Shown here: one piece after another, positions 21,890 through 62,039 of the stretch
How the letters are laid out: every line of letters starts with the position of its first letter
Numbering within the stretch: the stretch's first letter is position 1
Assembly (NCBI GenBank): GCA_008632985.1
Contig: QPGO01000012.1
Location: 248,001 to 312,000 of the forward strand
DNA: 64,000 bases
Reading direction: 5' to 3'
DNA from: Psammoneis japonica
Taxonomy: Eukaryota
Position numbers and translations under genes: made by a program
Notes under the pieces: model-generated
Database searches by the model: none
The model's input: only the letters and a program-made list of their open reading frames with translations
Told to the model about the DNA's origin: nothing

Positions 21890-22300
21890 TCAAAGCCCAT
21901 GTCTTTTGCCAAAGGAGCAGCCCCTGAGGTCACTCTTAATGACTTTGAAGCAGCTGAGCCAGTTGGGTGTGGTTGTTGTGGAGTGGTGTTTGGAGGTGAG
22001 TGGAGCAGGGAAGTCATTGTGCTCAAACTCTTTGATGCTCACAACAAGAGAGCAGAAGAAGGGACTCATTTGAGCAAGAGATGAGAGGGCTGACAAGCCC
22101 TTGAAAAAGGCACAGGGTTGGCTTGCTGTGATGCTAAAGCTTGTCACTGCAGCTTCTGTCATGATCTGTTTTGGAGTGCAAACGGCTGAGCTAGTGCAAA
22201 CGGCTGAGCTGCCCCTGCAAAGTGCTCTTCTCTTGAAGATTGGGGTGCAGAGTCGTGTTGTGAGAGCCACAGAGGAAGCAGCTTGCAGTTTTTGTCATTT
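21890..22300 (+). pseudogene. Protein kinase-like gene fragment
   Basis: VTLNDFEAAEPVGCGCCGVVFGGEWSREVIVLKLFD resembles kinase subdomains I-II (GxGxxG, VxxK). Partial second copy at ~37235-37460. Confidence 0.55.
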
Positions 22301-22334
22301 GGGTGTTGACATGGCTGCTTTTTGTGTGTGCTTG

Positions 22335-23000: not shown

Positions 23001-23099
23001 CTCCAGGTGCAAACAATTATAACATGCTATCATGTGTGGATACATTTTATGATCGACGTCAATCACGAAAGCACGCGACACTATTATAGAATTACCGTA

Positions 23100-27049: not shown

Positions 27050-28479
27050 TCTCGGAGACGCCAAGTGACCGTGATCGTAATTCGTAATACGAGTGTTTGT
27101 TTTAGCGAGGACATGATGTGAATCTCAAGCCAGTGATTGTCACCATGATGCCTCTGTATAATCGCACCAGTCCGAGTCCCTCCGCAAGAAGAAGATGAAG
27201 AAGTAAACGGGGCTTGGATCCAATTAAAAAAAAAATAGTGTCCATGTTTTGTGAATGTTGCGCAAGTAGCAGGTGCACCGTAGCAGTTTCATCGCCTCAA
27301 CTGTTTCACTGGTGCTAACGTTTCCTTTGACACCTCCAACAATCCTCTCACGACCACATGATGATGCAAATTCAAGGCACCAGAATAATTGTTCCAACTG
27401 TCTTCAAAGTCATCATGAACGGCCGCCATCCACAAGGTTTTGGTCGCAGATCAATCTGGGATGTTGTTTCTGGTGTCTGAGACAGCGCCATGGCGATTGG
27501 TGATTGATGTTTGAAAGAGGGACTTGGATGATCATGAGGATTCCAGATTGCTCACATTTTTCCCCATTGTTGTCATCACAAGAATAGAACACAATGTTGC
27601 CCCATTGTCAACTGCTTCTCATCTTTGCTGCCTCTCAGGGCAATGATTTGCATCAGTTTGCCCTGGACAAACGTGCTTTCAACAATTTGCAAAGGCTGTT
27701 GACAGTCAGTTGCCCCATCTGTGGCATGGATGCACCCGGGGATTGTGGTCCCCTTGCAAACCTCAACACCACCTGCTTCCCCAGAGGTGAAGCACAAGTT
27801 GATGTGGGCTGGTGCAAGTCAACGATGGCATCATTTGCAGCAGTGAGAAGTTGACACTCACACAAATCTTTGCACACAGGAGACATCCAGACTTGTGACC
27901 TGTGCCAAAATGGAAGATGGGCAGTGGGAAGTGCACAAAGGTGAGCAGCAACAGCACATGAGACAAGCTCATAAGAAACACAAGACATGCAAAAATCTGA
28001 TCACTTGTGTGAACTTTTCTCATCATGGAGAGAGCAAGAGTGGGAACAAGGAGAGAGCAAGAGTGGTTGCAAGAAGGGAGGACACAAGGACTAAAGCAGG
28101 ACACCCATTGTGCAAGGACTGTGAAGGATGACAGGAACTGGTGCAATGCAGCAGGAGACAAACAAGGGCGGGAAGAAGGGAGCATTTTTTAGTGTTTGGT
28201 GCAGAAATGACAAAGCAGAACATTTGCAAATCAGATGACAAGCAGCACACAGCCAATGTGCAATCAGATCAACAAGACAATTGAACATGTCATTGTTGTC
28301 AGAAATGAACAATGTCAGAAAGTTGTTGCATGGAAATGGTTGCTGAGAGATGGAAACAAATGCAAGTGACAAGTTTCATCAACTGTTGTTTCCCTGTGAA
28401 CAGAATCAAAAATGATGTTGAAACAAGCAGACATGAGAAATTGTCAAGAATGTGTGCACAATGAGGCTGATTTGCATTG

Positions 28480-30150
28480 ACTGTCAATTTACACAGACTG
28501 TTAAATCCTGCTTGGAAGGTTGACATGATTGTTAAATTTCCCATTCCCTTTGTCAGTGATTGACAAGCACTTGTCAAGAACACAAAATTCTGAACAAGAG
28601 CATGTGAGTTCTGAACAAGAGCCACAACATTTTCCAGATGCAGCATTGTTGTTGTTGTTGGGGGGGTGTTGGATGACCAACTCCCAAACCCGCAACTCTC
28701 TTGTTTTCATCTTGGATTGCTAGAAATGAAAGGACCAAGATTGTGCAATTGAGAATCTTCTGGGAATTTAAGAGGGAGCAATGGCAAAGATTGCCCATGA
28801 TGCAAAATGTTTTGCAAAAGGATGCCCTGGCAAGCATGACATTTTCCTTGAAAACCCAAGAAATGACAGAAAATGGATGACCCCAACTGCACCAACTTTG
28901 ACAGGCTTTTGCCATTGTTCAAGGCCATCAGGAAGGCAAAGCAGAGTGGGTTGTTGTGGCAAGAACAATGCCACAGCAATGCTGACATCATTGCAGATGA
29001 CAGGCATTTGTGTGCAAACAACATTGCAGCAATGCAAATGATGCATTCCATGGTGCACTCAGAGTCAATCAGGAATCTTTTGTTGACTTCCACTGCACAC
29101 CCAAACAGAACCTGATCAAGAACTTGCACTGCAATGGTCTGCACTGGGGTGCTGATGCCATCAGTGTGTTTCCTCTTGGGACCAACTTGTGTGCCATGTT
29201 GTTCCAATTGGGTCAGACAACCAGCCACTTTACAGTCAATCCATGCTTGCAAGCCAAGTGCAAAGCACAGTTCACAATTTTTGTCAATGCATTTTGGGCA
29301 CCTTCTTCAGTTGCATCTAGAAGCACAAAGATCATGGCATGACCAAATTTGCAAATCGTGCTCATGGGATGTGCCCTCAACATTTGACTCATTGTCGGCA
29401 TCAGAAAGAGGTGTGAGAGTGTGCATCATTCATCCAATTTGCCCAACTGCAAACAGTGTCTGACACAAGGCTTGGTGCCTGCATCCCAAAAAGTGGACAA
29501 TTCTGTCTCAAGTAAATCCACAACAAGTGTGCACATTGAACACCAGCCACCCAGTCTTCCAACACAGAAGCTGCTTCTTTCTGCTGTCTTTGTGGTTGCT
29601 GTCATGTTTTGGGTCATCATTTTTATCCTCCACAACATTCATCACCAAATTGCATGATGGCACATGGACATCTGACTCTTCTTTGCTGGCTTGTGCTGCA
29701 CAACCGCTCTCATGATTCAACTTTCTTTCACCCCAACCTGCCTTGGAGCACAGTCTGACATTCTTGTGCAAACCGTCACGTGGTTCACATGCTTTGCCAC
29801 AGTTGAGAAATTCCAGAAATGCTTCATTGCATTCAAAGGTTGGAAAGCATGTGTGGTCTCCAACAAACTTCTCCAAGGAGCCACCAGGCCTTGGATCATT
29901 GCAAGAGAGAATCACACCTGTTGCCTTTGCCTTTAAACTCTTGACAGCTTGCCTCTCATGGGTCTTTTTCACCATGTCTGATTTTTCAAGCACAGTTTGG
30001 AGCTTGCTGCCCTGGATCTCTGCCACCAAAGCTTCTGCCTCCTTTGTTCTCACCAGCATGCTCTCAAGCTTTGCCTTCAGGAGCATGAGCTCCTCCTTCA
30101 AACTCTTGTGTGCTCTTCCACATCTGCACTCAATGCCTGACATTTTGTGC
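28480..30150 (-). mobile_element. Decayed PIF/Harbinger or ISL2EU-like transposase relic (tentative)
   Basis: Coiled coil followed by HTCFPTFECNEAFLEFLN, LCWKTGWLVFNVH, LDATE and KHGLTVKWLV, reminiscent of the DDE_Tnp_4 layout. Heavily mutated. Confidence 0.45.
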
Positions 30151-30325
30151 TTGATTGTTGGTGTTTGTCATCTTGAGATTGCTGGCATGACACCGCAGCA
30201 TGTGCCACACTCTGCTGGCTGGTGTTGGTGTTGACAGGTTTGGATGGTCTCTCCTTTGTGTGGCTGCTGCCACACTGGAAACCCAGACCAGCAATCAGTG
30301 TCTTTCCTGTCCATCAACCAACAAG

Positions 30326-30864
30326 CCACTGAAACAGAAAATTTTGTGAATCACAAACAAATTTGTGGAGACAAATGGATCGAATTTTTTCATGATGAAA
30401 GCACGTGCGAGGTCTCTGAGTGCTTCATTTTTTGCTTCAAATGAGCAAATGCTGCTGTTTTGACAACCGCAGGTCTGCAAGTGACGTGAAACAACAAACC
30501 AATTGGATTGTTGTCATTGTGAAGAGCCACACGATGTTTTGTTTGTGAGGAAAGGTGGTGCAATCATCCAAAAAGAAGGTCATTTTTGTTGAAATCTTGC
30601 GATGCATCGGCATGAGTTGCTGTCATGAGAAGGTGATTTCCTTTGGAAACAAGGATTTCTTGTCATTTCTTGTGCATCATGTCTTTTCTCAATGAAAGTA
30701 GAAAGAATGCCTGCACCTTGAATTGCACCAGAGGATGTTGGCCATGTTGCAAAGATGATCTTGGAGGGTGACAAGGGTCATTTCTTGACCTGGCGTGCGA
30801 AGATTGTGCGGGGATTAGGAATTTGTTGCAAATTTTGCATGTCGCAATTTTTTCGATTCAGCAG
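30326..30864. mobile_element. MITE family B copy 2, inverted relative to 7443-7964
   Basis: Full-length reverse-complement similarity (e.g. catgatgaaagcacgtgcgag, gtttgtgaggaaaggtggtgcaatcatccaaaa). TSD CAAG (30322-30325, 30865-30868). Confidence 0.82.
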
Positions 30865-32082
30865 CAAGCATGCCAACCACAGCCATGAATGATGCAGAGT
30901 CCATCATGGTTTTGACAAACTGCCAGGTGAGTCCAACTTTTTCTGCCTGCACCCTTGCAAGTGGATGCTGTGAATGATGCCAAGTCCAGTGCACTGTCAG
31001 AGATGCCAAGAGCTTCTCTGCCAGTTCTGCCCAAGACCCAACCAAGCCAAAGTCAACAGTGCTCATTGCTTTCAGTGAGAAGTGCAGTTGTCTTGTGCAA
31101 GATTCACTCAACAGGACTGCAGCAACCATGGCTTGCTCTTTGTCTCCATCACAAGAAGTGCTGTTTGATGTGCTGCAGCAGAAATTCAGACATCGAATTC
31201 AGTCAAATTTCTGGTTGTTGCCCAGTCTGTCCACACCCAGGCCAAAATCTTGAAAAGAAAAAAGGTCTGTGTTCCCATTCTTGAGCTGCTGCTGCAGACA
31301 GTGCAGCTGGCCAATGTTGAACTTCTGTTGCCACTCTTGAACTGGACAATCATGTTCTCAATGCCAGCCACATCAGACATGTGCAGCACACAATTTTGCA
31401 GCCCATTTGTGGGTTGGAAATCCAACATGATCTTTTGCCACATCTTGCCAAATCAGATGCCATGTTTGTCACACGTTCTGCCAACATGCTGCTGAAACCA
31501 AAATCAGCTGCGCTTCCTGTGCACTGCCCCAGTTGGATTTTCATTTTGCCATCACTGCCCTTTGATGCTTTTGCTCTTTTGCCTTCACAGATTGTGCACC
31601 AGTCAATGAGCAGTGCAGAGTTGCATTGGATGAAAGCAGTGGAAGCAGCACACCTCAGACTGTTGCTGATGAAGCCATGCCAACTGTGTTTCCATTGGCT
31701 CTGCCGCTGTTTCCTGTTGATGTTGGACAAGGTGCAACAAGAGGCTGCACGTTCATGGTTGTGCTCAGGTGACAGCAGCATCGTCATCTCTAAACGTGCC
31801 GCCATGGTCAACACAATTCCCACGGGTGGCGCCAAAAGTGTGATGCCTGGCATTAATTTCACACATCTCTCTACCGTTTGTTCATCGCATCCTGGATCGG
31901 GCTGGAGGTGGTGCCAGGTACGGGCAGACGGCCACTGCGATTCTTGCGGCGCTGCTGCTGCGTGTGGCGACAACCAATCCTTGAGCTGTTCTCAGACATT
32001 TTTTCTGTCACTGAATACGGTGCTGAACAATAATAAGAGGAAAGTATTATTTCAGTCTACCTAAAGAGCGAGAGCTGTCAAG

Positions 32083-35000
32083 TCAACCCAACAAGGTGCA
32101 TCTTCCACTACCGGATGCGTCCCAAAAAAGGCAGTCACCGGTAGGAGATCGGTCCGTGTTACCTTCAAATATTTGTTGGGTCTCATCAAACTCGAACGAG
32201 CCAGAACTATACCATCCCACAGCTCCATACTACACCCGGAAATAAAAAAAACACTGCATGAGACAACACACCTGATCAGATAAAATTCGGAGTCATGGTA
32301 CGTTTACTTACACCACGAGAACCCGTGACGCTATTGTTCGTGAAGCTGTTTCCAGCGAGGAGATCGACTCGCCCAAGCTCAACAATAATGGCACCACCCC
32401 CGTTTTCTGCCGAGTTGCCCAAGAACGTACTCTGTGAGATTTCAACTCTGGTTGTAAAATATTGAGCACCAAGAGCAGCAGCCCCGGTTGCCGTATTTCT
32501 CTCGAATAGGGTATTTCTGATTGAAATACGAGCATACCCCCCGCCATTGGACTTGCCTTGAGCAGCAATGGCGCCTCCGTAGAGCTGTGTAACGATTGCG
32601 CAAGAAAGCACGATGGGAAAAGAGTCAACACAGCAAAGCAACGTGCAAGGCAAACTAAAATGAAAAGCAGTGCTGTGACAGCAATGTCATTCTTGTAGGT
32701 CATACACGTACCGCGTGGTTATTTCTGAACACGCAGTCCTCGACAGACATTGTTGTACTCCTCGGATCGCCCCGCACAAAAATAGCCCCTCCATTTCTAC
32801 TTGCATGGCTGTTGTCGAATTCAAGTCCAACAAACGTAAGGTTGCCAAAGTAAAAATTAAAGATACCCCCGTCGTCCTCTGCAACGCGTCCGGCATCGGC
32901 ATTGCCATCAAGGACGCACCGACGCTCAGGATAATCTTCATTTGCACACTTAATCGTCAACTCCCTCGCTGAAATGCCGACACTTCCGTCACCATTATTG
33001 AACAGGATAACGCCAGGGCACAAATTCAATAGAGTCTCATTATTTGATTTCGTTGTTGCAATGGCATCAGCCAACTGATCTCGCGTTTCGACATGTTGGC
33101 ATTCAGGAGCTCCACTTGGCTGCAAAGAAAGCCAGGGAGCATTTGAAGGATACAAACTCGGACGAGAAGAAATTGAGGGAGCATGTGAAGGCTGTGAAGT
33201 GGGTCGAGAAGAAAGCGAGGGAGCAAATGAAGGCTGTGAACTCGGTCGAGAAGACATTGAGGGGGCGCTTGAAGGCTCCAGACTCGGTTGAGAAGATTTT
33301 GAGGGAGCACTTGAAGGCTGTAAACTCGGTTGCCAAGAAATTGAGGGACGTGATGTTGAATGATCTGAGCCCTCTCCATCACATTCCGGATAAAAAAGAC
33401 TGGAATGACCTTTGCTTTGCAGTCACCTGATTCAGAACAGTCTATATCAATCGGTTTCTTCAATACCACCTCCACTCTGTCAGTGGATTTATCAACAACA
33501 TACTCTTGAATAGTTCCACCAACGCGTTCATCGCACCGGAGTGCCGTGGCGCCACTAAATAAACAGATATCAACGGCGTCGTCCTCAGAAAACTCGGATA
33601 GATCAATCGTAGCTGTCGTTGTGTCGCTACAGCCACGTGTGGGACTAAAGGAGGCACAGCACTGCCCCTCGCTACAAATGAGAGGCCCAGGAGTCTCCAG
33701 TGAAGCTTCTGGGTCGACCAGTTCGACAAAGTATCCGTTGGTCTTGAGGACCTTGTAGTATTGAATTGCTTGTCCTTGATTGGGCAAGGTACGGACTACC
33801 GAACTCCCCATCAAGACTCTTACGCCGGAGGATTCTTGTGAGTCGGTCATAATAATCACGAGTGTCGCCACCAGGGCTTGATTTGAAACAGAACATGTTT
33901 CTTTTCCAGCCATGCATTCAACTCCCTCGATCTCAAGTGAAGCTGCATAGTCAATCACTTTCACCTTGTAAACTCCCTTGAGAACTGTAGCTTGAACAAA
34001 TGGCTTGTTACCTTGGTTTGACAGCGTGCGGATGAGTTTGTCTCCGGAGAACAACTGAATATCAGTCGTGTCAGGAAGTCCAGTGGTGTCAACAGAGAGA
34101 GTCTGACAAAATCTGTGGATGCTACCGAGCAGCCAGCCCCGGCCACGGAGCAGATGACATCATTGATTTCCCACGTGGCCGCGTTGTCGATCACCTTTAC
34201 TTTGTATACTCCCCTGAGCACATTAACCTGAACATTCGCCTTGTTTCCTTGGTTTGATAGAGTGCGGACGAGCTTTTCTCCAGAGAACAACTGAATATCT
34301 ACGGAGCTAGGGAGCCCGGTGGTGTCAATTGAGAGAGTCTGACGAAGGTCTGTGGATGCTACGGAGCAGCCAGTCCCGACCACGGAGCAGTCTACTCCTT
34401 CGATTTCAAGTGAGGAGGCCTTGTCAATCACTTTCACCTTGTATTCTCCCTTGAGAACGACAGATTCAACGGATGGCTTGTTACCTTGATTTGATAGAGT
34501 ACGGACGAGCTTTTCTCCGGAGAACAGCTGTATGTCTACCGAGCTAGGAAGTCCAGTGGTATCAATAGAGAGTGTCTGCACAATGTCCAAGGATGATACG
34601 GAGCAGCCAGGTCCTGCAACTAAGCAGTCTACTCCCTCGATTTCGATCGAGGTGGCTTTGTCGATCACTTTCACCTTGTATTCTCCTTTGAGAACGACGG
34701 CTCGTACGGATGACTTGTTTCCTTGGTTCAGTAGAGTGCGGACAAGTTTTTCTCCAGAGAACAGCTGTATGTCAACCGAACTAGGAAGTCCAGTGGTATC
34801 AATAGAGAGTGTCTGCACAAGATCCGTAGACGATACATTGCAGCCATTCCCTGCCACGGAGCAGGCGACCTGGTTGACTTGCCACGTGGCGGCATTGTCG
34901 ATCACCTGTACCTTGTACACGCCCTTGAGAACAACGGCTGGTACGGATGAAATGTTTCCTTGGTTTAATAGAGTGCGAACGAGATCGCCTCTAGAAAACA

Positions 35001-35580
35001 GGTTGCCACCCCAAAGTATCTTGATATCCACCGTGCTTGGGAGCCCTGCGGTATCAACTGTGAGTGTCTCGACAAGGTCAGCGGATGCTACCGAACAACT
35101 AGGCCCCGACACAGAGCAGTCAACGCCGTCCACCTCATGCGAGGCAGCATTGTCAATCACCTTTACCTTGTACAGCCCCTTGGGAACAGCAGCTTCGACC
35201 GAGGCTTTGTTTCCTTGGTTCAAAAGAGTACGAACCAGTTTATCTCCGTTAAAAAGTTTAATGTCGACGGAGCTAGGCAGTCCAGTGGTATCAATTGTGA
35301 GAAAAGCAGAGGAGGCCACAGTTGGTGCGCTTGTCGGATTCTCCGAAGGGAAGGAAGGGTCGAAAGGGGTCATTGAGGTCGCAGAAGGAGCAGCCGACGG
35401 CGTTTCTGACACGAGTGGTGACAAGCGTCTGCCGTTTAAATCCGGTTGTTGAAACAGCGAGGATGACGTGCGCAGCATTCTCTTCTCTTGTTTGTTGAGA
35501 GAGATCGGCGTGAGATTCTCATTGCTGATTTCCCGTGCGCAGCCGACAGATAAAACGAGAAAGCCAAAAAGGAACTTTAT
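32083..35580 (-). CDS. Large secreted/surface protein: ~78-aa beta-rich tandem domains, SxxPS linker and GGAI/FxxN (Pmp or pectin-lyase-like) beta-helix C-terminus; frameshifts at ~34105 and ~33392
   Basis: Signal-like IKFLFGFLVLSVGCA. Repeats LSIDTTGLPSSVDIQLFSGEKLVRTLxNQGNK...KGxYKVKVID...C...C. Motifs NGGAIF, YGGAIA, GGGAII with FxxN. Introns 32585-32711 and 32230-32311 keep the frame to TGA at 32083. Start codon uncertain. Confidence 0.8.
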
Positions 35581-36017: not shown

Positions 36018-36653
36018 TAGGGTTTCTCTATCGTAAAAAAGGAAGCGGTTAGCACACAAGATAAGGAAGAAGATAAGGAAAAATCTTTGTACTAGGATCC
36101 TACGTAGATCCTACGTAGATTATGACGTCACCGATCGCGCGATTGAGCCGCTTTTCGCGCGCCACTTGCCAACAACATCACGCTCGCAAGCACCATGATG
36201 GCACCATGCATCATCAACTCGTCGTTCGTCGTGACAGCCGTTGTCGACGATGGACAATACGGGTGTCCAGACAAAGATCAGGGAGCTCCACATTGACAAT
36301 GCGCATTCAACAAAAAGTCATAAGTCAGCGTTTGGAGGAGTGGTTAACGACGAAAGGCATGCTCTCTGTTGGTCTCCCGACGACGGTATTTTCGCTGCGG
36401 TCACGACGAGGTGGGGCAATCGCGCCAAGAATATGGTCCCCAACAGCGTCTACCTTACTCATTGAATGTAGTGTTTAAAGTACTTCAGTAGCTATGGGCT
36501 CTAGACAAGTCAACCGCTACATAAAAGGGCCATGCCAGTTGCAACTACGTAGTAAATTACCATAATTAATTTTTCCTTATCTGGTTTCCTTATCTTTCCT
36601 TATCTAAGGAAATTCAGGGCCAAATAAGGAATTCCCTACGATAGAAAACCCTA
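36018..36653. mobile_element. Non-autonomous Mutator-like (MULE) element, 636 bp
   Basis: TIRs TAGGGTTTcTCTATCGTA / TACGATAGAAAACCCTA. Inverted subterminal AGATAAGGAA repeats. 9-10 bp TSD GGTGTTGCT(A/G) at 36008-36017 and 36654-36663. Confidence 0.82.
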
Positions 36654-37039
36654 GGTGTTGCTGCGCGAGAGAGAGCGAACTGTGACGGTCTGGTTGTCTG
36701 TTGGCAATCACATTTTTAGAGAGCGAGTTGATGTCTTTTGTGTCCAGAGTCCGTCACTTTTGCAAATGCCGCGGAGTGATGCACTCCCTGAGAATGTGAG
36801 AACAAAAAAACACAGCGTGAGTTCAGAGAACATGTTCACTTGTTTTTGTTGTGAGCCAGATTTTGGGTTGTCAACAGCAGGTCCAATGGCGCCAACACAA
36901 AATCACAGCAATGCCCATTTTTGGCGATTGTGAGGGGTCATGGTTGCAGATGCTTTGTGTTGGTGCTTTTGCAATTCCAGAAATGGCTGTTTCTGCAGCA
37001 TGTGTTTGGTCGCACAGAAAACATGCTGCGCGACAAGCA

Positions 37040-37780
37040 CCTGAAATCCAACATGATCTTTTGCCACATCTCACCAAAGCAGGTGCGCCTTGTTTGCCAC
37101 ACATTCTGCTGAGAACTGAGAACATGCGGCTGAGGCCAAAAAATCAGCTGCACTTCCTGTGCACTGCTCTGGTCAGATTTTCATTTGCTGTTGCTGCCCT
37201 TTGGCACTGCTCTTTTAGATGTTTCACCTGTCCTTGTGGTGTTTAGAGGTGAGCAGAGTGGGGAAGTCATTGAACTAAAAAAACTCTTTGATGCTCACAA
37301 CAAGAGAGAGCAGCAGAAGGGGCACATGCACTTGATCAAGAGATGAGGGCTCAGCACAAGCATTTGAAAAAGGCATGGGGCTGGCTTGAAAAGTTCATTG
37401 CTGCAGCTTTTGGCATGATCTGTTTTGGAATGCAAGTGGCTGAGCTGCCCCTGAAATGTGCCTCTGCTGCTGCTGTTTGATGACAAGGGCATGCTGCAAA
37501 GCCCTTGGAAAGCCCTTCACAACCTGTGAGTGCAGCAAGAAAAAAGCAGATGTTGCAGAGACACCCACCCAGCCACTGCTCCTTCTAAAAACAGGCACTG
37601 GAGAGAGGGAGAGAGAGAGAGAGAGTTCTGAGGTTGTATTCTTTGTCCGTTGTCACTGCATCTGTCCCCAGCCATCTCGAGGGTTTCAAAATTTCAAAAA
37701 TCTCCACGTTGCATACAATTACCATATACCTTCATGTATGTATACAGTTTATGATCGACTTCAATCACGAAAGCACGCGA
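37040..37780 (+). repeat. Chimeric duplicated block (copy of ~31415-31570, kinase fragment, LarA tail and flank)
   Basis: gaaatccaacatgatcttttgccacatct and aaaatcagctgc shared with ~31420-31520. 37235-37460 matches ~21985-22225. 37470-37780 matches ~22715-23078. Confidence 0.8.
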
Positions 37781-42306: not shown

Positions 42307-43561
42307 ACAAGATCATTTTGACTACTACATGATTTTGGGCCGACCAACACGTGATTAAATTCACCTGTCAGGGGCACCCAACACACACAAGATTTTACAC
42401 ATCTAGAGAGAAAAAGAAAGAGCTTGTCGTGTGTATGTGCATGTGACAAAGATGGATTGGATGACCTTCATCTCAAGACATCGAGTATACGACGCACACA
42501 CACGACAGTGCTGATTAGAAAAACAAAGGAGAGAACAAGACGGTATTTGATTGCCTGAAGCTTTCCACAGCTACACTGGGGATACTACAAAAGAGAGAAA
42601 AAGAAAGCGTGGGAGCATACAGTGGGGAGTGGTTACAACTATAGAGAAATATTCAACCACACGATTGGGGCTGCTACTTACTACGGTACTAGCAAATGTT
42701 TTAACGCATTATGTGCTAACTTTTCTAGCTTTTAAATTGTTGGATGGGCGAGCGAGAGAAGCGTTCCGGCAACATGCGAATGTTTCATTGGCTTGGCATC
42801 CACACTATTTCATTCCAGATGATTCTTCGTTCTTTGTGCCGTGGAAGTTTACGACAGCTTCTCGGAAAAGGAAATGGTCAGAGCCGAGCAACTGATGGAG
42901 TGAGATGCAGCCTCTTTTCAACTTTCTTCGAGGACAAAAGACAAGTCACAATGGTGGAAAAAGGCCATGCCAATTGAAGTGGATGAGCAATTACGATCTT
43001 TGCATCTCTCACGCTGTCCACCTCACACTCCTCTTTTCTCTGGCCTTTTGCACCACATCACACGGCAGCACGCTTTTCTTGGAATGAATTTCACAGAGAC
43101 ATGACAACTGTGACCTGTCCTAGATTCAAGATGTTGTGAAGATCACAAATTGGCACTCTAACTCAGCCCTTTCTTCCTCTTGAATCAAGGGGACATGGCA
43201 CATGCTGCTCTGTTGTCGCAGACCAACACCATGCAAGATGGAGTCAAGTCTGCCCCCCTTTTGACTGCAAAACAGAAGCAGACAAGCTGGTCAGATGCCC
43301 AGTGCTTCTCCACTTGATCCAGGCATTCTCTGTTCTTTCTTGGCATGCCCTCAGCTTCTGCAGGGAAGCTGATCAATGGCTCAGTTTGATGAGGAGATGA
43401 CAAGAATGTCTTGAGGAAGCCAATGTCCACATGTGGCTCTCCAACACCTTGCTCAACAAGTTGATGATGCTGCCCCCCTTGGCAGCTCATTTTCTTGAAT
43501 GGTGAAGAATGCATCATGAGGATGATTTGCCATTGTTCTTGGTGCAGCTTCATCCTTGCAG

Positions 43562-44000
43562 TGCAGCATGCATGCAGACAAAAGGTTGTGTTTGTCACGC
43601 CCTTTGTGACATTTAAAGGCTGTAACACGTCGCCGTGATACATTAACTCTTATTAGTAGCTGTATATTGCACTCCTCCCCATGTGTCGCGCGTCCATGCG
43701 GCTCTTTACTAACGTGCACTGACACTGCACGGTTTTGGCGGAACAGTGTGGGTACGTGCGAAGGAACATACAGAACTGCACAGAGTTTTACGCGTTCGAC
43801 AGTGATCAACGTTGCTGCAGACAACTCCCACTCAGGGTTTCGAACCCCTGGCCTCCTGCCCAATGGTTGCGAGATGAACCACATTCACAATGCAGCATGC
43901 ATGCAGACAAAAGGTCATTTTTGTCACGCCCTTTGTGACATTTAAAGGCTGCAACACGTCGCCGTGATGCGTTGACTCTTGTTGGCAGCTGTGTGTTGCA
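43562..44000 (-). mobile_element. TRIM-like miniature LTR element (439 bp, two 110-bp LTRs)
   Basis: Direct repeats 43562-43671 and 43891-44000, each TG...CA. Polypurine tract GGGGAGGAG (minus strand, 43672-43680) abuts one LTR. 4-bp TSD GCAG. Non-coding interior. Confidence 0.82.
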
Positions 44001-44947
44001 GCAGGACAGCAGGGAAACATCATGAAGAAACTTCAGAGCACGAAGGAAAGAATGTCATTTCGATGCCTTTTGTTGCCACACAGTTCAGCAGATGGGCAAA
44101 TCCTTTCTCACAGCATGCCATGCCCTCTCTAAGATGCAATTGTGGAAGATTGCTGGGAACACAAGGTGCAGCCCATTTGACTGTCGTGCTTTGAAGCATG
44201 TCCGCTGGAGGAAGTGAGTGACGTGCTTGAACTCCATTTCTGCTGGGGAGGAAATTGGCGCCCTCCTTGTTGGAGCTGTGATTGGCTTGATGGTCCACTT
44301 CTCTCTGTTGTCAACTTTTTAAAAACCCAAATGTGCTTTCATTGAGTGCAAAGCTTTGCTCTTGGTTTGACCAACTTGGATGAGGCACACTCATGACTGC
44401 TGTTTTCATGTCATCCAGCAATTTAATGTGCGCACCTTGACACGCAGTTTTCTCTTCAGCAACCCTGTGTTTTGGTGCATTGTTGCAAGTTGTTTTGAAA
44501 TGCAGACTTTCATTTTTGTCCTTTGTCTGCCTTGAAAGTGTGTCAAAGTTTTGTGTTGATTGTTGCTGTCATTTGTTCCACTGCAATCTGTGTTTGGTTG
44601 TTGATCATTTTCCCATGTCAGAGAGAGGCATTTTCCACCACACAGCATTCTGGGCTTGTTTGGGGGGGATCTCCCAGATTTTTGAGTCTGCACATGCAAA
44701 CACATTTGGAGCATTGGAAAGTTTCATGATGTGTGAAAGCCTCAGAAATGAACACAAATTTTTGTGAGCTCTTGCAAACTGGGTGACTGCAAACATCTGT
44801 CTTGCATGTTGGTTCACTTTCCACCTGCACCATGCACACACACAACATGCCATGTGCTTTTTTGTGCCAGACAAATTTTGCACACAAAAATGTTGCACTG
44901 TGAATTTTGCTCACACAACACATGTGAGCAGCAGATTGTCTCAATGC

Positions 44948-45154
44948 TGGGGGACGTCTTCGGAAGTGAGACTGTCGAAGAAAGTTACATAGAATTTGCA
45001 CTAAAACAGTCTGTCAATCAGTGCGATTGGGCATTTGGGACCTCTGGACAGATCCCACGTGTTTTTTTGCGTGTACAAAATGCACTGGGAAAACCCCCAA
45101 ACGCACTGGCGATCAGACCGCCTTCGACGATCTCACTTCCAAAGACGCCCCCCA
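44948..45154. mobile_element. MITE family C (207 bp)
   Basis: 33-bp TIRs TGGGGGaCGTCTTcGGAAGTGAGActGTCGAAG with 4 mismatches. Flanking 4-bp duplication ATGC. Confidence 0.72.
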
Positions 45155-45649
45155 ATGCATCATTTTTTTGCACCACGCAGACAAAAATGAAAATGCTGTG
45201 TCTTGCACTTTTTTTCACCAGCTTTGATCAATGTCATTTTTGTTTGAAGCTGTGAGCTCTGCAAAAAGAAGCAGAAGAAAAAGCTGAGTCTTCGTGAGGT
45301 CTTCACAAGTGGCAGCTCGTGGCACAATGTGACAGCTTGCGCTGCTGGGCCTGGTGACTTTTTGCACTGATTCCCAAAGAAAAAGCAACCTGGCAGTCAT
45401 TTGTCAGGGCCCCACTGACAAGTCCAAACAAACAAATGCATCAAGTCCCAATCTGAAATCAAAGTGGCCCATTTGGACTCTTGCTCGAGCTCCGAGCTCT
45501 TCCAAGTTGGAGACGCGCTCTGAGCGAAACGCGAGAAGAGCGAAGCAACAAGCAACACAAGCAACACAGCGAGGCAAACACGCCATTGTTATTAGTTGCA
45601 GTTGTTGTTGTTGTTGTTGCTGCTACTGCTTCACACTACCACCGCAATA

Positions 45650-48600
45650 ATGTCGTCATCAAGCAGTAGTAGCGCAATGTCCCCTCAAGACAAGGAGCTG
45701 TGTCAGAAGGCGCTTGCCACGCTAATGTCTCCGTCTCACTCCAACAAGAATTATCTCTTTTTAGAACCCGTCGATCTCGTGGCCTTTCCAACCTATTCCA
45801 CAATTGTCAAGCGTCCCATGGATTTGGGAACCATTCAAAAGAATCTAGACAAATATCCCACTCGCGACGCCTTTTTTGCCGACTGCATGTTGTGTTTTGA
45901 AAACGCCCTCGTCTTTCACAAGAACAACAAGGAGACGCAGTGGATTATTGGCATGGCGAAGGAAATGATGAAACTAGTCAACAAAGAAAAACGCAACGCG
46001 GAAAAGAAAGCAGGCAAGCCCAAGAGTACGGGACTCAAACTCAAACTCAAGACGACCACCTCGTCGCCGCCTACAACAAAACCAAAAATCAAAATAAAAG
46101 CAGCTGCGAGTAGTAGCAGCACGGTTTCGAGCAGCGGGAGTCAACCGCAAGCAAGACCCAAACTCAAACTCTCTCTGAACAAAAACAAGGTGACAGCGAG
46201 CGCTCCCTCTCGTGGCAAAGTGCCTCCAGCAGCAGCTGCTACTGCTGCTGCAGCGACTGATAAAAAGCCATCCAAACCCAAGATTCAGGTGCGTCTATCA
46301 GCACCCTCGCGAGGAAAGGAACTCCCCGAAGGCGTGGCACCTACAAAACAAAAGCAACCCAAAAAGACTGCTCCCAAAAAGGCAGCAGCTCCCAAGAAAC
46401 CACGAGCCAAAAAGCAATCGTTTGAAATGACCGACGCTCGCAAACTGCAGTGCTTGAAAGTATTGTCGGGACTCAAGCGAAGACGCTCAGAAGACGCCAA
46501 GTGGTTTGCTCATCCCGTTTCCGACAAGGCCATTGTCGATGATTATCGTGCCAAAATTCCCAAACCCATTGATTTGGGAACCATGGCAACCAAATTGGAA
46601 AAGAATCAGTACAAGACGATCACGGATTTTGTCTTGGATGTTCGACGCATTTTTGCAAACTGCCTCCGATACAATGCCACGAGTGGCCGAGACGAATTTC
46701 GAGCCATTGCCGTGGACATGTTACAGCTTGCGGAAGAGCTCATGGCATTCTTTATTGCACGCCCCGAACAACAACCCGGCGGTGGCGTGCCCTATCCGCC
46801 CCTCTTGTACTGTTGGAAGACGTGCGTGACCATTATTGACAATTTGTTAAATGTCAAGAACCCTACCGATGGCTTTCAAACGGCGCATTACTTTTTACAT
46901 CCCATTGCTTTTTACTTCAAGGGCAATGTCCCGCCCGACTATTATGCCAAGGTGAAGCGTCCCATGGACTTTGGGACCGTCACGTCGCTCTTGTTGGAAG
47001 GCGTTACTCAGTCTGTCAAGGAGTTTGCCGACAATTGTGAATTGGTTGTGAATAATTGTTTGGCGTATTATGAAGGCAAACCCGAAGGTGGCGCCGTGTC
47101 GGAACAAGCACTCGCGTTGAAACGGCACATGTCCTCCCAAGGACTGCACGCTCTCATGCCCTACGACCAATCTCCGGCGGGTGCGGCGGCACGAGCCAAG
47201 GCGACCAGTTGGAAAAATGTAAAGTTCCCCAGACCGCCTCCGGCGTTTTTGCTAGCCATGATTACCGACATGCGTCAACAAAAGTATACGGATAAACGAA
47301 CAAGAGTGAGAACGAATATCTTGAATCATTGTGTTTGATAAGCTCTTGCTTTTGCTGACACCCCCCTTGTTTTCTTACCTTTAGATCACGGAACCGGCCA
47401 TTGTGCTCTTTGAGAAACCGGTCAATCCGGTTTTATATCCTGATTACGCACAGGTTGTCAAGACCCCCATGGATGTACAAACGATTGAACAGCGAGCCAA
47501 GGCTAGCTACTACGCGACACCCGAAGACTTTGAACAGGACTTTTTGCAAATATTCAGGAACTGCGAGACCTACAATGTTCCCCGTAAGAGCGATCATATT
47601 GTCAATTTGGGACGATTTGGAGCCAAGTCCTTTCGAAAGATTTACTCGGCAAGAATGAAAGCCTTGGAGAATCCACAGCCACCGCCACAGCCGGTCGCGC
47701 CGGTCCAATCCCAAGACCGCAGCGACCAAAATAAGCGTTCCTTGACGCCGAGTTCTCAGGAAAAACCTAGCAAGAGGATCAAGATTGAGGAGAGAACCAG
47801 CATGCCGGGCAAGGCTGCTCCTCGCATTTCTATTCAGGCTTCCGCGTCGGCTGGGAAGGGACCACGATCGAAATCGCCAAAGCTTTCAGGTTCCTCACAA
47901 AACAACAAAAAGGGTGGCTCTGGTGGAAAAGCAGATGTTCCACTTCACGTGGCCATTGCTCAAATCAAGGAGCGATTTCCGCTTCGCCGACCGTACAAAC
48001 AGCTCGATTCGTGGGAGGGAGCTTGCGCACGCTTTTTTCGAGACCTCATGAAGCACCCTTGGCTTTCGGCGGCCCGCCCCAAGTTTATCTTTCACGTACC
48101 TGTGCCCGTTTTGTTTCCAGAACTCGAAGAAACCTACACGGCCAAAATCAAGAAACCCATGGATCTGACCACGGCCGAGGCCAAGCTGTTGCAGGGAAGC
48201 ATTTATCGATGCGCCAAGGACTTTATCGACGAGGTGGCGCTTGTCTTTGCCAATGCCATTACGTTTAACCGTGCCGGACACGAGTTGGGAGAGCCGCTGT
48301 CGTGCGCGTACTATGACGCCTCTATCCATTTGTTGCGTTATACTCGCTGGCTGTCGCTAGAATTTTTGACCCCCTATCTGTCGGACGATCCTCAAATTGA
48401 CGAGATTGTTCCAAGCGCAGTGCCACCCACATCCTGGAAGTTGTCGGTGGCCAACAAGAAGAAAGCGAGAGAAGAAATGGAGAGCATAGTCATGAATGAA
48501 CCAATCGATAGAAGCATTCAAGGAGATCGCTACACGTGGATGGAGTCGGAATGCGAAAAGTTATTGAAAGCGCTGAGGCACCAGGTAAGCAGCCTTTCTG

Positions 48601-49551
48601 AATATTGAATTTGTTTGTTTGTACTAATCGTTTTCTCTAACACCACATCTTCTGTTCGGTTACAAGTCTGACCTCAAGTACATGACGTTCTTCATCCAAC
48701 CGAACTATCCCGCAGATTACGCGGCGTTTATATCCAAGCCAATGGATTGGGAACGGGTGCAGCGTACTCTAGCCAGACGGGAGTACCATCGGTTTGGGGA
48801 GGTGATTGAAGATCTTCGCCTCATTTTTGTCAATGCGCTCAAGTACAACGCTCGAGCCAAGGGCACCGACACGGTTTCTGGAAGAGCCTATGACTCGGCC
48901 ATTTACATGTCCAAGAAGCTCGAGGCGGCCATTGATAAAATGGTGATTACGGTCAGTGACCGATTGGAAAGGGAACGAATCGACCATGCAAATGCCGAAC
49001 GCGAGATTGAAACGCAAGAACGATTGGAGCGGGAACGTCTCCGAGAACGGGTGAGAGTCGAGGGTGAAGCTGCAGTGTTTGGAGACCAGCAACGAGTCGA
49101 GACTATCGAAACCGTAAGGATTGTCAACCGAAGACCCGCGCAGAAAAGAGAAAAGCTGGACTTTGAGTTTCCGTATTTTGAGGATGATTTGCCCCACGAA
49201 ACTGCCGCGGTGGATATCCAAAAGGGAATGTTTGAGCGACAACGACGGGCGCGTGGCCAAATGTTCAGAATGGCCAAGAGCACCGGTGGCGTATTTTTCC
49301 AGCGCTTGTCGAACAGGGCAAAAGCTATTGAACGAGCAAAGAGAATGCGTGACTTGCGGCTCAAAGCACAAGATAAGACCAGTGCTAAAGCAGCGAGCGG
49401 CAACAAGGCGCAGCCTAAGGTGGGCACCGAGGCAGGTTCCTCTGTTCTGTCCGAGAAGCGAGCTCCAATTGCCATTCGCCTCAAGCAGGTGAAGCACAAG
49501 AAGCCTCGAAAGAAGGCGAAGCCACTTGATTTGGGATTTGATGATGAATGA
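45650..49551 (+). CDS. Multi-bromodomain protein (six bromodomain-like units; introns 47306-47384 and 48585-48666)
   Basis: Six F..PV/PI/PN...Y...P(M/I)D motifs (RPMDLGTI, KPIDLGTM, RPMDFGTV, TPMDVQTI, KPMDLTTA, KPMDWERV) followed by NA/NC..Y/F(N) motifs. GT-AG introns keep the frame. Confidence 0.9.
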
Positions 49552-55472: not shown

Positions 55473-56868
55473 GCTTTGAATGAGTCGTCGCTCGAGCTCA
55501 AGGAACACTGCAATGAAAAAAGGAGAAAAGCGCGGGTGACTCCTCCACTGTGCACTGTGGAATCTGGAATCTTCGGAATGAAGAGAGTTTCAATGCAGTC
55601 ATCCGAAATTGGAAATGTTTTCTTCATTACCGAATACATGGGACATGTATGCTCGTTTGCTGTGCACTTTTCGAACTTCGCCAAACTGCAGAAACGGCAT
55701 GCACCAAATTCATTGACATCAGAATCATCATTTAGAAGCCTTCATTGTAATTGAATCAGAGACAACAACAGCAGCTAAAACAACCACTGAGAAAAACGCG
55801 AGAACTCGACTCAGCACATTTTGTTGAATTTGTGCCCCTCCCCAGCTGCACAAAATGACAGCCTCTCTTGACCTCAACCAGGAGTTTCTGCCAGTTTGTG
55901 TGCCCATGACCACCAAGATTCAAATCCTCAATGCTTGTTCCCATTGCTCCTTTGGCAAGGAATGGATGGGCTCTGTGGCACAGACCTTGGCGCGAGAGAG
56001 CAAATGTGCAGATTGTCAGTTGCCCGCTGGACCAACTTTCTCTCAGAATCACCATGCTGGTTGGCAGTGCTGCTGGAAGTCCAGTCTGGATCTCTGATCT
56101 CATTCTTTTCAATGTGTCTGCAGCAGCTTTGATGCATTGCCCCCTGAGATCTTGTCCGCTTGTTGACATTGCTGCTGAAATCTTCAGCACAGCAGCCACG
56201 TGGCAACCCTCTTGCCACCTGCCCCAGACATCTCCTCCATGTCCGCAAATGCTTTCCCAATGCCCACTCTGATGCCTTGCCAGGAGGCAAACTGTTTGGC
56301 CATGTCTCCCTCTCATGCATCAGTTCATCGACGGTCTTGTTCGCTCCCGAGCGACCACGCACGTGGCGGTGGTGCTTGGTGCCAAGATTGCGGGGTGCTG
56401 GCTGTTGTTGTTGGGCTGCCATCATCAACAGTGGCACCGGTGACATTTGAATGAATGCTGGTATGATGTGCACTCGTTGCCCTTATTGCGTTCAATGTTG
56501 CATGTTGCTTCTCTGTGATCATGTTGTTTGAACACGCCCCGCTGCTCTGGCCGTGCGTGCTGTGTGCTGATGGACGCGACGGATAGACGGACGTGCTTCT
56601 GCTAAAAGAAGTTTGAAAGCCTAAAACCAATAGGTTCTTATCCACGATTGAGTTGATTTTTCAAAAAAGAAACCTTTCGCGGATGCCAACGCAACAATAC
56701 GATTAGATTTCGCGAACGCAGCGTGAACAAGAGCAACATGTGCATTTCACTGCACATTCGTCTCCGAACAACAATACTATCAACCCTTTCAACAGATAAT
56801 CGACTTGTCAAGTCGCTGCTCTCTTATCCTTCCTTTGCTCTCTATTCCACGTCTATCTCTCGCTCATC

Positions 56869-59156: not shown

Positions 59157-59749
59157 GATATAATGTGTATAGTCAATTTGTTGTTGTGTTGCGCAATATG
59201 CTATCAAACAACAAACAAACAACCTCTTGATAGAGAGTATGAACAACGCAGAACACAATCTTCTGAGCACAAAAAGTCTTTGAGATGCAACGTGGTCGGT
59301 CGGTGGTTGGAGGGAGAGAGGAGGCACATACGTGCGTTTCATTCAATTTATTTGTAAATAAAGATATTCAATATTCAAATCTTGTGTACATTTCTACGGC
59401 CAGTCACAGCCGGAGAGATGAATCTTGCAAGATCTACATGCGCGTTTTCCGTATATCCATGACATACCAAGAACGTACGTGAATCAACGTAAAAACATTG
59501 CTATTGATAATCTTTATTCCCAATAACTTTAATTAAAAAAAAGTAACCGTCCTTGTAGACGTGGAAAATTTGAAACGATTGCCCGCCAAAGCGTCTGTGC
59601 GTCGTTTGTCCAGGTTTCGCGGACACGGCCCGGGCAGGTGCCGCACCCATCCACACGACGAACACTGGAGACATGTGTACACTGCAGCTGGTTGGCGTCC
59701 AGAGAAGAGTGTGTGTGGTTGACACAAGTTTTTTCTGATCCAAACACTG

Positions 59750-62000: not shown

Positions 62001-62039
62001 TGACCAGCTGAGCTGCGTGGCTCATGACACCTTCTGGGT

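What the first reader, a model, noticed from the sequence alone, without database searches (positions are those of the whole stretch)
43562..44000. Two LTRs of one element record the mutation directly: TA converted, CpG untouched
Seen: left LTR ctgTAacacgtcgccgtgaTAcatTAactctTAtTAgTAgctgTATAttgca versus right LTR ctgCAacacgtcgccgtgaTGcgtTGactctTGtTGgCAgctgTGTGttgca. All eight TAs in this stretch are TG or CA in the right copy, the three CpGs are kept in both, and only one other base differs. Known: LTRs are identical at insertion. Inference: TA conversion is near-saturating and much faster than CpG decay or background mutation.
Basis: seen in the sequence. Interest (0 to 1): 0.9.

Follow-up and report, generated by a model that had tools for sequence, protein, structure and literature searches.

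The report
TA-erasing hypermutation caught in diatom retroelement
A tiny LTR retroelement in a diatom genome has one repeat with its TA steps intact and the other with them all turned into TG or CA, an example of a TA-specific hypermutation that has scrubbed nearly half of this window and was so far reported only in an unrelated alga.

Summary
Two 110-nt direct repeats (43562-43671, 43891-44000) differ at 12 places. Eight are TA in the left copy and TG or CA in the right; four shared CpGs are kept.

The repeats are the LTRs of a 439-nt non-coding, TRIM-like element: TG..CA ends, a 4-bp target duplication, and a polypurine tract and tRNA-3'-end complement on the minus strand. The family is high-copy (1311 contigs laid).

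TA is the ancestral state. At 7 of the 8 sites other copies carry both T>C and A>G variants, which a RIP-like gain of TA cannot produce.

The wider picture is larger than the finding. 53 of 128 500-bp tiles have TA o/e below 0.2, mostly with CpG loss, and TA+CG lost equals TG+CA gained. TA loss precedes CpG loss.

The process is patchy rather than clock-like: the equally old left LTR kept all eight TAs. Recombination with an older, converted copy remains a rival for this one pair.

The closest known case is TpA-only hypermutation in Bigelowiella natans (2026 preprint). I found no diatom report.

The parts
43558..43561 (.). Left target-site duplication, GCAG
   Evidence: The same 4 nt follow the right LTR at 44001-44004. 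This is weak on its own, because 4 bp is short and the LTR itself starts with a similar word.
43562..43671 (-). Left repeat, the 3' LTR in the element's own (minus) sense. It has TG..CA ends and 9 TA, 8 of them unconverted targets.
   Evidence: The purine tract abuts it on the minus strand.
43672..43680 (-). Polypurine tract: GGGGAGGAG on the minus strand, directly upstream of the 3' LTR
   Evidence: Read from the sequence; inference.
43672..43890 (-). Non-coding interior of 219 nt. It has 15 CpG and 5 TA. Relative to the family this copy lacks about 12 nt between 43872 and 43883.
   Evidence: loose ends at 43872 and 43883.
43831..43862 (+). Stretch that reads like the T-arm, acceptor strand and CCA of a tRNA 3' end. 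Its complement on the minus strand is a primer-binding-site candidate, 28 nt from the 5' LTR.
   Evidence: Read from the sequence. ARAGORN and Rfam call no tRNA, so this is a resemblance only.
43891..44000 (-). Right repeat, the 5' LTR in the element's sense
   Evidence: Loose ends with diverse flanks at 43891 (7 contigs) and 44000 (13 contigs) show these are the ends of a mobile unit.
43952..43995 (.). Converted patch. All 8 TA of the homologous left stretch are TG (6) or CA (2) here, and the CpGs at 43957, 43960 and 43963 are kept.
44001..44004 (.). Right target-site duplication, GCAG
42851..43557 (.). Left flank, part of a TA/CG-scrubbed domain. It holds only 3 TA, at 42992, 43121 and 43159.
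   Evidence: A contig of run X1 (depth 62) covers 43300-43586 with 0 differences.
44005..45589 (.). Right flank, the same scrubbed domain. It holds 7 TA in about 1.6 kb and ends about 60 nt before the start of the bromodomain ORF.
   Evidence: A contig of run X1 (depth 75) covers 43973-44300 with 0 differences.

Best explanation
The feature is one copy of a high-copy, non-autonomous, TRIM-like LTR retroelement in a diatom genome. It lies on the minus strand, inside DNA that has been almost wholly cleared of TA and largely of CG.

The difference between its two LTRs is the footprint of a DNA-level hypermutation specific for the TpA step. A changes to G on one strand or the other, so TA becomes TG or CA. 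The process acts on repeat or foreign DNA in patches or domains and runs to near saturation there. TA flanked as Y-TA-R is relatively refractory. CpG loss follows more slowly in the same domains, most simply through deamination of methylated C.

In this copy the outer 50 nt or more of the right LTR have been converted. The rest has been hit only sporadically: TG at 43587, CA at 43916, and a few interior sites.

Shown: the direction of change, the TpA specificity, the domain structure, the order of TA loss before CG loss, and the mass balance.

Inferred: that the lesion is enzymatic adenine deamination, as proposed for Bigelowiella natans. TA is its own complement, so the sequence cannot distinguish this from a thymine-side lesion. 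Also inferred: that targeting follows chromatin or repeat status, and that the patch arose in place.
For: 1. Eight of 12 LTR differences are TA>TG/CA, P = 3e-8.
2. Family variation against this copy (1311 contigs laid) shows A>G at 13 places, T>C at 14, G>A at 4 and C>T at 2. Both T>C and A>G occur at 7 of the 8 LTR sites, for example 23 and 27 contigs at 43639/40, and 36 and 36 at 43665/66. The same holds at 2 interior TAs (43707/08, 43710/11); three others (43754, 43769, 43790) show one direction only.
3. The repeat 12679-13232 lies in normal DNA and has 20 TA and 24 CG. Its copy at 22325-22920 has 1 TA and 3 CG. The TA sites read TG (8) or CA (5) there, and the CG sites read CA (11) or TG (5).
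4. Copies that both lie in scrubbed DNA differ by CA against TG at the same dinucleotide 9, 5 and 5 times in three pairs. This is the mark of independent conversion.
5. Scrubbed DNA against normal DNA loses 34.5 TA and 42.3 CG per kb and gains 42.3 TG and 32.9 CA per kb.
6. 53 of 128 tiles have TA o/e < 0.2. No tile has CG < 0.4 with TA >= 0.2, while 11 tiles have TA < 0.2 with CG >= 0.4.
7. One scrubbed domain holds a LINE relic: Exo_endo_phos at 2e-5 and a weak RVT_1.
8. The scrubbed flanks are reproduced without a difference by contigs of a public run at depth 62-75.
9. The same signature was measured as de novo mutation in B. natans (abstract, Results and Discussion read). There, 230 of 231 mutations in the hypermutable regions were A>G or T>C, all of these on TpA.
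Against: - The two LTRs are equally old, yet one lost 8 of 8 TAs and the other 0 of 8. For any uniform per-site chance this has probability at most 1.5e-5. A plain rate argument therefore fails and a patch, a tract or recombination is needed.
- Spreading in from the scrubbed flanks is not general. The 97%-identical inverted repeats 1054-1449 and 4230-4624 keep their TAs close to their junctions.
- Both alleles at the two non-TA differences (43590 G/T, 43642 A/G) seem common in the family, because no 'other letter' is listed there. This fits two subfamilies better than private changes in place.
- Depths are per contig and contigs are laid on the better-fitting LTR, so shares per site are rough.
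- The run is from the sample that may have given the assembly, and its platform is not on record.
- No enzyme, no RNA data and no genome were available.
Confidence: 0.75

Rival explanations
1. The direction and the process are as above, but this pair is not an in-place record. The outer part of the right LTR, or the whole right LTR, comes from an older, already converted family member through unequal recombination or gene conversion between copies.
For: - The boundary is sharp: 8 of 8 TAs converted against 3 of 17 elsewhere in the element (Fisher p = 1.5e-4, post hoc).
- The family is very abundant and most copies are partly converted.
- LTR depth exceeds interior depth about four-fold, which suggests solo LTRs and therefore active LTR-LTR recombination (a rough measure).
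- Both alleles at 43590 and 43642 look common in the family.
Against: - The right LTR shares the exact register and ends of the left one, and a matching 4-bp duplication flanks the element. A simple exchange with a copy elsewhere would usually break the duplication.
- The CpGs of the patch are all intact, so the donor would also have to be only TA-converted.
- The contigs themselves could not be read, so no donor was identified.
Confidence: 0.3
2. A RIP-like process (C>T at CpA, on either strand) created the TAs in the left copy. On this view the right copy is the original.
For: All 9 differences in the 3' half have A or T on the left and G or C on the right, which is the polarity a C>T process would give. 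Fungal RIP prefers CpA (recalled; the preprint's Discussion describes RIP as C>T).
Against: - From an ancestral CA, a C>T process cannot give TG, yet 33 contigs carry G at 43624 where the right LTR has CA. Seven of 8 sites show both kinds of variant.
- The window's repeat relics are TA-free, not TA-rich: TA o/e 0.06.
- The copy in normal DNA has both TA and CG where its relic has TG/CA.
Confidence: 0.03
3. Assembly or base-calling artefact. TA and CG in heavily modified DNA were misread as TG/CA, so the scrubbed domains and the right-LTR patch are not real.
For: - Loss is near total (TA o/e 0.00 in several 500-bp tiles) and domain-wise.
- CpG methylation of diatom transposons is known (recalled; PMC9998398 seen only in the search listing).
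- The platform of run X1 is not on record.
Against: - Contigs built from exact 31-letter words of a public run reproduce both flanks with 0 differences at word depth 62-75.
- Within one family and one run, TA, TG and CA coexist at the same site.
- Conversion is partial and context-dependent: 74 of the 115 surviving TAs are Y-TA-R.
- The same signature was found with Illumina mutation-accumulation lines in another alga.
Confidence: 0.05
4. Selection against TA (and CG) rather than a mutation bias. Examples would be avoidance of a TA-cutting nuclease or transposase target, or of UpA-specific RNA decay.
For: TA and CG are both avoided in RNA viruses and some transcripts (PMC3829696, search listing only).
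Against: - The scrubbed DNA is non-coding relic: 46 of 48 long frames have no Pfam match.
- Genes and the spacers between close genes keep a normal TA o/e of 0.57.
- Independent copies resolve one site to TG or to CA at random.
- Losses and gains balance one for one.
Confidence: 0.03

Closest known systems
TpA-specific hypermutation of integrated viral and transposon-like DNA in Bigelowiella natans (bioRxiv 10.64898/2026.01.13.699255; abstract, Results and Discussion read)
   Same: - Changes are only A>G or T>C, and only at TpA, giving TpG or CpA.
- The process is confined to regions of foreign or repetitive origin and is not constitutive.
- The long-term signature is TpA depletion with CpA+TpG enrichment.
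- TpA-poor coding sequences are enriched for reverse transcriptase and DDE endonuclease domains.
   Different: - The host here is a diatom (Stramenopila), not a chlorarachniophyte (Rhizaria), judged by the named relatives of two proteins.
- The extent is far greater. 53 of 128 tiles of this window are affected, with TA o/e often 0.00. In B. natans there are 124 clusters in about 95 Mb, and the hypermutable viral region has Rho(TpA) 0.45.
- Here CpG is lost in the same domains and Y-TA-R sites are spared. The sections I read report neither.
- No de novo mutations were measured here. The preprint's supplements were not available to me.
Repeat-induced point mutation (RIP) of ascomycete fungi
   Same: It is also a hypermutation that targets repeated or foreign DNA, depends on dinucleotide context, is made of transitions only, runs to saturation and leaves sharply bounded relic domains.
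   Different: RIP changes C>T mainly at CpA and so makes TpA-rich, AT-rich DNA (recalled; for C>T). Here TpA is destroyed and GC content is unchanged (0.486 against 0.474, from the base counts). Dependence on duplication was not tested here.
APOBEC editing of LTR retroelements in vertebrates (PMC4866542; search listing and start of abstract only)
   Same: Both give clusters of one kind of transition in retroelement copies.
   Different: APOBEC deaminates C during reverse transcription (G>A on the plus strand). Here the change is A>G on both strands, it occurs in integrated DNA of all kinds, and it differs between the two LTRs. Editing of the RNA or of the first cDNA strand would not give that difference (inference from the standard LTR replication scheme).
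ADAR hyper-editing of double-stranded RNA
   Same: Both give A>G clusters with a preference for U/T before the edited A (as stated in the preprint's Discussion).
   Different: ADAR acts on RNA. An edit in the genomic RNA would be copied into both LTRs. The non-transcribed relics here are scrubbed on both strands equally: TG/(TG+CA) is 0.45-0.56 in all 11 domains.
TRIM (terminal-repeat retrotransposons in miniature) of plants and other eukaryotes (recalled, no call)
   Same: Short LTRs (110 nt), a short non-coding interior (219 nt), TG..CA ends, a PPT, a PBS-like tRNA complement, high copy number and probable solo LTRs.
   Different: The PBS candidate lies 28 nt from the LTR instead of 0-5 nt, and no tRNA was matched to it. 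The target duplication is 4 bp rather than the usual 5 bp. The autonomous partner is unknown.

Membership tests
LTR retroelement, TRIM-like (non-autonomous) | Two direct terminal repeats with TG..CA ends | tested here: met
   43562-43671 and 43891-44000, 110 nt with 12 differences. Each begins with TG and ends with CA on either strand.
LTR retroelement, TRIM-like (non-autonomous) | Target-site duplication | tested here: inconclusive
   GCAG occurs at 43558-61 and 44001-04. It is only 4 bp, and the word recurs in the LTR start.
LTR retroelement, TRIM-like (non-autonomous) | Polypurine tract next to the 3' LTR and a primer-binding site next to the 5' LTR | tested here: inconclusive
   On the minus strand a 9-purine tract abuts the 3' LTR. 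A 32-nt complement of a tRNA-like 3' end with CCA lies 28 nt from the 5' LTR. ARAGORN and Rfam find no tRNA.
LTR retroelement, TRIM-like (non-autonomous) | Many copies with different flanks; no coding capacity | tested here: met
   1311 contigs of run X1 were laid on the element. Summed word depth is 22,000-257,000 against 62-75 in the flanks. Loose ends at 43891 and 44000 have flank agreement of only 0.51 and 0.42. The interior is 219 nt.
TpA hypermutation of the B. natans kind | Changes almost only A>G or T>C, and only at TpA | tested here: met
   8 of 12 LTR differences. 27 of 33 variable places in the family. In the pair, 13 of 20 TA sites read TG or CA.
TpA hypermutation of the B. natans kind | Confined to regions of foreign or repetitive origin while host genes are spared | tested here: met
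   Scrubbed domains have TA o/e 0.06 and domains holding the Pfam-matched genes have 0.57. A LINE relic lies in 2002-2714. Most scrubbed DNA has no recognisable origin.
TpA hypermutation of the B. natans kind | TpA depletion coupled to CpA+TpG enrichment | tested here: met
   CA and TG o/e are 1.78 and 1.76 in scrubbed DNA against 1.16 and 1.17 in normal DNA. The mass balance holds.
TpA hypermutation of the B. natans kind | Elevated de novo mutation rate measured in living lines | not testable with these tools
   This needs mutation-accumulation lines or strain resequencing.
RIP (fungal repeat-induced point mutation) | C>T at CpA producing TpA-rich, AT-rich relics | tested here: not met
   The relics are TA-free with unchanged GC. 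The family shows TG as well as CA at single sites.
Methylation-driven CpG decay | CpG>TpG/CpA loss in the affected DNA | tested here: met
   This is met for the old domains (CG o/e 0.28; CG>CA 11 and CG>TG 5). It is not met in the right-LTR patch, where all CpGs are kept. Methylation itself was not tested.

The most novel reading that the evidence does not exclude
Diatoms, or at least this lineage, run a genome-defence hypermutation that mirrors fungal RIP. An adenine-deaminating activity, possibly one enzyme that also deaminates C at CpG, is directed to transposon-derived chromatin. It works in short, roughly nucleosome-sized tracts, spares Y-TA-R sites, and over time erases every TA and CG from a large share of the genome. 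Its presence in both Rhizaria and Stramenopila would make it an old trait of the SAR group.
Probability: 0.3. Interest if true: 0.85.

Novelty: new member of a known kind. Interest (0 to 1): 0.7.

Why it matters
TpA-directed hypermutation of invading DNA has been reported once, in a 2026 preprint on a chlorarachniophyte, and its enzyme and targeting are unknown.

This window shows the same signature in a diatom, on retroelements, and at an extent that has reshaped the composition of nearly half of the sampled DNA. If it holds, the process is not a curiosity of one alga.

A family with apparently hundreds of copies or more, at all stages of conversion, offers a natural time series. From it one could read site preference, tract length and the order of TA and CpG loss.

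There is also a practical point. TA- and CG-free DNA has no TAA or TAG stops, so it produces long false reading frames (one search lists 69 frames of 110 aa or more). It also blurs repeat families, which will mislead gene and repeat annotation in such genomes.

Tried and rejected
Laid contigs stood in for it.
- ARAGORN found no tRNA in the window. Rfam at E up to 10 gave only chance-level hits in 43400-44150. The tRNA likeness is therefore by eye only.
- BLAST of the element against the window found no second copy.
- No RNA holder was listed among the sequencing runs.
- Earlier-findings look-ups by place, words and sequence gave nothing on this genome or this process. The phage notes listed do not bear on it.
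- Pfam on 48 of the 69 long frames listed for the scrubbed domains: 46 had no match, one matched Exo_endo_phos, one weakly matched RVT_1, and one had coiled-coil noise.
- Strand bias of conversion: TG/(TG+CA) is 0.45-0.56 in all 11 domains. The two nominal p values below 0.05 are not convincing.
- A simple rule that 'only A followed by a pyrimidine is converted' fits the right LTR (3 of 3 asymmetric sites) and the excess of YTGY+RCAR over YCAY+RTGR gains (25.3 against 14.8 per kb). It fails at 43623/24 and 43651/52 in the family and at several sites. I rejected it as a strict rule.
- Spreading of conversion from scrubbed flanks into new insertions is not general.
- Control in other diatoms: in 26 environmental contigs of 2.5 kb or more, out of the 54 loci found with the TLC-domain protein, 0 of 395 tiles had TA o/e < 0.15. 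The control is weak, because metagenome contigs seldom hold repeats.
- Literature searches found no report of this process in diatoms. The library lacks most subscription journals.

Full report
**1. The observation**

The full direct repeat is 110 nt, 43562-43671 against 43891-44000, with 12 differences.

- Eight differences are TA in the left copy against TG (6) or CA (2) in the right copy.
- The left copy has 9 TA and the right has 1. The single shared TA lies in TTTAAA.
- Four CpGs are common to both copies.
- The remaining differences are 43642 (CA left, CG right), 43587/88 (TG left, CA right, at one dinucleotide) and 43590 (G/T).
- With a per-difference chance of 0.055, eight or more of 12 such hits has P = 3e-8.

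**2. What the repeats are**

Each repeat starts with TG and ends with CA. GCAG flanks the unit on both sides (43558-61, 44001-04).

Read on the minus strand, a 9-purine tract abuts the downstream repeat. The complement of a stretch that looks like a tRNA T-arm, acceptor strand and CCA (43831-43862) lies 28 nt after the upstream repeat. The interior is 219 nt and non-coding. This is the anatomy of a miniature, non-autonomous LTR retroelement (TRIM-like; the family definition is recalled). ARAGORN and Rfam do not call a tRNA, so the primer site is a resemblance only.

The family is very abundant:
- 1311 contigs of public run X1 were laid on the element at 80% likeness or better.
- Summed word depth is 22,000-257,000 over the element against 62-75 in the flanks. 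The tool warns that this is not a copy number.
- Contigs run off into unrelated sequence at exactly 43891 and 44000.
- Most copies carry about 12 more nt between 43872 and 43883.

**3. Direction of change**

- Relative to this copy the family varies at 33 listed places: A>G 13, T>C 14, G>A 4, C>T 2.
- At 7 of the 8 LTR sites both T>C and A>G variants are present in many contigs: 9/33, 23/27, 13/33, 26/27, 26/20, 27/35 and 36/36. At 43657 only T>C is seen (32 contigs).
- Two interior TAs (43707/08 and 43710/11) show both kinds of variant. Three others (43754, 43769, 43790) show one direction only.
- By my reading, 31 of the 33 places lie in a TA, or in a TG/CA where other copies have TA or the opposite product. 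The exceptions are 43646 and 43688.

TA is one step from both TG and CA. A C>T process starting from CA cannot reach TG. The RIP-like alternative is therefore rejected.

**4. The window as a whole**

The finding is a small part of something larger. The window is bimodal. Domains of 1-6 kb have TA o/e 0.00-0.15, usually with CG o/e below 0.4 and CA/TG o/e of 1.7-2.1. They alternate with domains of ordinary composition.

| Measure | Scrubbed DNA (about 29 kb) | Normal DNA |
|---|---|---|
| TA o/e | 0.06 | 0.57 |
| CG o/e | 0.28 | 1.02 |
| CA o/e | 1.78 | 1.16 |
| TG o/e | 1.76 | 1.17 |

Mass balance per kb, scrubbed against normal DNA:

| Lost | Gained |
|---|---|
| TA 34.5 | TG 42.3 |
| CG 42.3 | CA 32.9 |
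| Total 76.8 | Total 75.2 |

Further points:
- The normal domains hold the genes with Pfam matches: TFIIS, DnaJ/DnaJ-X, DUF6824, bromodomains and a TLC domain.
- 53 of 128 500-bp tiles have TA o/e below 0.2.
- A repeat in normal DNA (12679-13232: 20 TA, 24 CG) has a copy in scrubbed DNA (22325-22920: 1 TA, 3 CG). There its TA sites read TG (8) or CA (5), and its CG sites read CA (11) or TG (5).
- Pairs of copies that both lie in scrubbed DNA differ by CA against TG at one dinucleotide 9, 5 and 5 times. This is expected only if each copy was converted independently.
- One scrubbed domain still shows a LINE endonuclease and a trace of reverse transcriptase.
- The element of the finding lies inside such a domain (about 42851-45589). 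That domain stops about 60 nt before the next gene's ORF.

**5. Order and context**

- No tile has lost CG while keeping TA. Eleven tiles have lost TA with CG o/e still 0.4 or more, for example 7501-8000 with TA 0.05 and CG 1.02.
- The TAs that survive in scrubbed DNA are mostly Y-TA-R: 74 of 115, mainly TTAA, TTAG/CTAA and CTAG. R-TA-Y sites are almost extinct (7 left). The TA shared by both LTRs is of the protected kind.
- Conversion shows no strand preference at domain scale.

**6. Is it real?**

Contigs made from exact 31-letter words of run X1 reproduce both scrubbed flanks with no difference at depth 62-75. TA, TG and CA coexist at single sites within one run. Conversion depends on context. 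These points argue against a base-calling artefact.

The run may be the assembly's own source and its platform is not on record, so I keep 5% for an artefact.

**7. Why the two LTRs differ**

A uniform rate cannot explain it. For any per-site chance, '8 of 8 in one copy and 0 of 8 in the other' has probability at most 1.5e-5. The two LTRs also differ at 2 of about 90 non-TA sites, so the element is not brand new, yet the left LTR kept its TAs.

The process is therefore local or episodic. This matches the B. natans experiment, where only some lines and some regions hypermutated.

In this copy the converted sites are:
- the last 50 nt or more of the right LTR;
- one site near each LTR start (43587, 43916);
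- a few interior sites where other copies keep TA (43697/98, 43717/18, 43757/58).

Spreading in from the flanks is one possibility, but another young repeat in the window keeps its TAs up to the junction.

The main rival is recombination or gene conversion with an older, converted copy. Both alleles at 43590 and 43642 look common in the family, and the LTR-to-interior depth ratio hints at solo LTRs. I put this at about 0.3. It would not change the direction or the nature of the mutation.

**8. Mechanism**

What is shown is a DNA-level process specific for TpA, made only of transitions, bounded by region, and followed by CpG loss.

What is inferred is the chemistry. The preprint proposes adenine deamination by an ADAT2-like enzyme and notes ADAT2 enzymes that deaminate DNA: A and C in amphioxus, C in Trypanosoma. 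Because TA is self-complementary, A>G on one strand cannot be told from T>C on the other. A thymine-side lesion is therefore not excluded.

CpG loss is most simply ordinary decay of methylated C in silenced repeats. Methylation was not tested here. A single enzyme doing both is the bolder reading.

**9. Comparison with what is known**

The closest case is bioRxiv 10.64898/2026.01.13.699255. I read its abstract, Results and Discussion; its supplements were not available. It reports:
- TpA-only A>G/T>C hypermutation of an integrated giant-virus region and a virophage region in Bigelowiella natans;
- rates about 1000 times the background;
- TpA-poor, CpA+TpG-rich clusters elsewhere, enriched for transposon domains.

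The present host is a diatom. The named relatives of two window proteins are all diatoms, at 35-66% identity. Six literature searches found no such report for diatoms.

The case differs from RIP (opposite chemistry), APOBEC editing (C deamination during reverse transcription) and ADAR editing (RNA; it would mark both LTRs alike).

**10. Verdict**

The corrections are:
- the process is patchy, not clock-like;
- CpG is also lost later in the same domains;
- an in-place origin of this one patch is not proven.

I class it as a new member of a recently described kind. Interest is 0.7.

Noticed in passing
window 1-64000; scrubbed domains about 1-1100, 2001-4200, 4701-9050, 13501-15600, 17301-23000, 27301-31900, 36651-37700, 42751-45600 (minus the element), 55651-56550, 59551-64000: The window is bimodal. 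About 45% of it is almost free of TA and largely free of CG, with CA/TG nearly doubled. The boundaries are sharp at a scale of 100-200 bp.
   Followed up: yes
scrubbed domains, 115 surviving TA: Surviving TAs are mostly Y-TA-R (TTAA, TTAG/CTAA, CTAG): 74 of 115. R-TA-Y sites are nearly extinct (7). This suggests a flank preference of the converting activity.
   Followed up: partly
window 1054-1449 and 4230-4624 (inverted, 97% identical), around 2002-2714: A pair of young inverted repeats of normal composition (26-27 TA, 28-29 CG each) brackets a scrubbed LINE relic (Exo_endo_phos, weak RVT_1). Three of their 11 differences are already TA against TG/CA.
   Followed up: partly
window 21983-23078 and 37043-37780: Two copies of a segment share the same TG/CA choices: 13 and 13 shared, 1 opposite, in 22714-22853 against 37470-37611. 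They also share the position where scrubbed DNA turns normal. They were therefore duplicated after conversion.
   Followed up: partly
window 17290-17380 and 7501-8000: These stretches have lost their TAs but are still rich in CpG. They are intermediate stages that give the order of the two losses.
   Followed up: partly
window 43948-43957 and 43993-44002: After conversion the right LTR end and the first two flank bases form a perfect 10-bp inverted repeat that the unconverted left LTR lacks. This is probably coincidence.
   Followed up: no
window 45596-49551: Three consecutive plus-strand frames all carry bromodomains (six domain hits in total). They may be one large gene interrupted by short introns or frame breaks.
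   Followed up: no
window 33914-35295: Internal tandem repeats about 235-240 nt apart (73-79% identical) lie inside a minus-strand frame with PPC pre-peptidase-type domains. The composition is normal.
   Followed up: no
scrubbed domains generally: TAA and TAG stops are absent, so scrubbed DNA yields many long open frames on both strands: 69 of 110 aa or more. These would be easy to mis-annotate as genes.
   Followed up: partly
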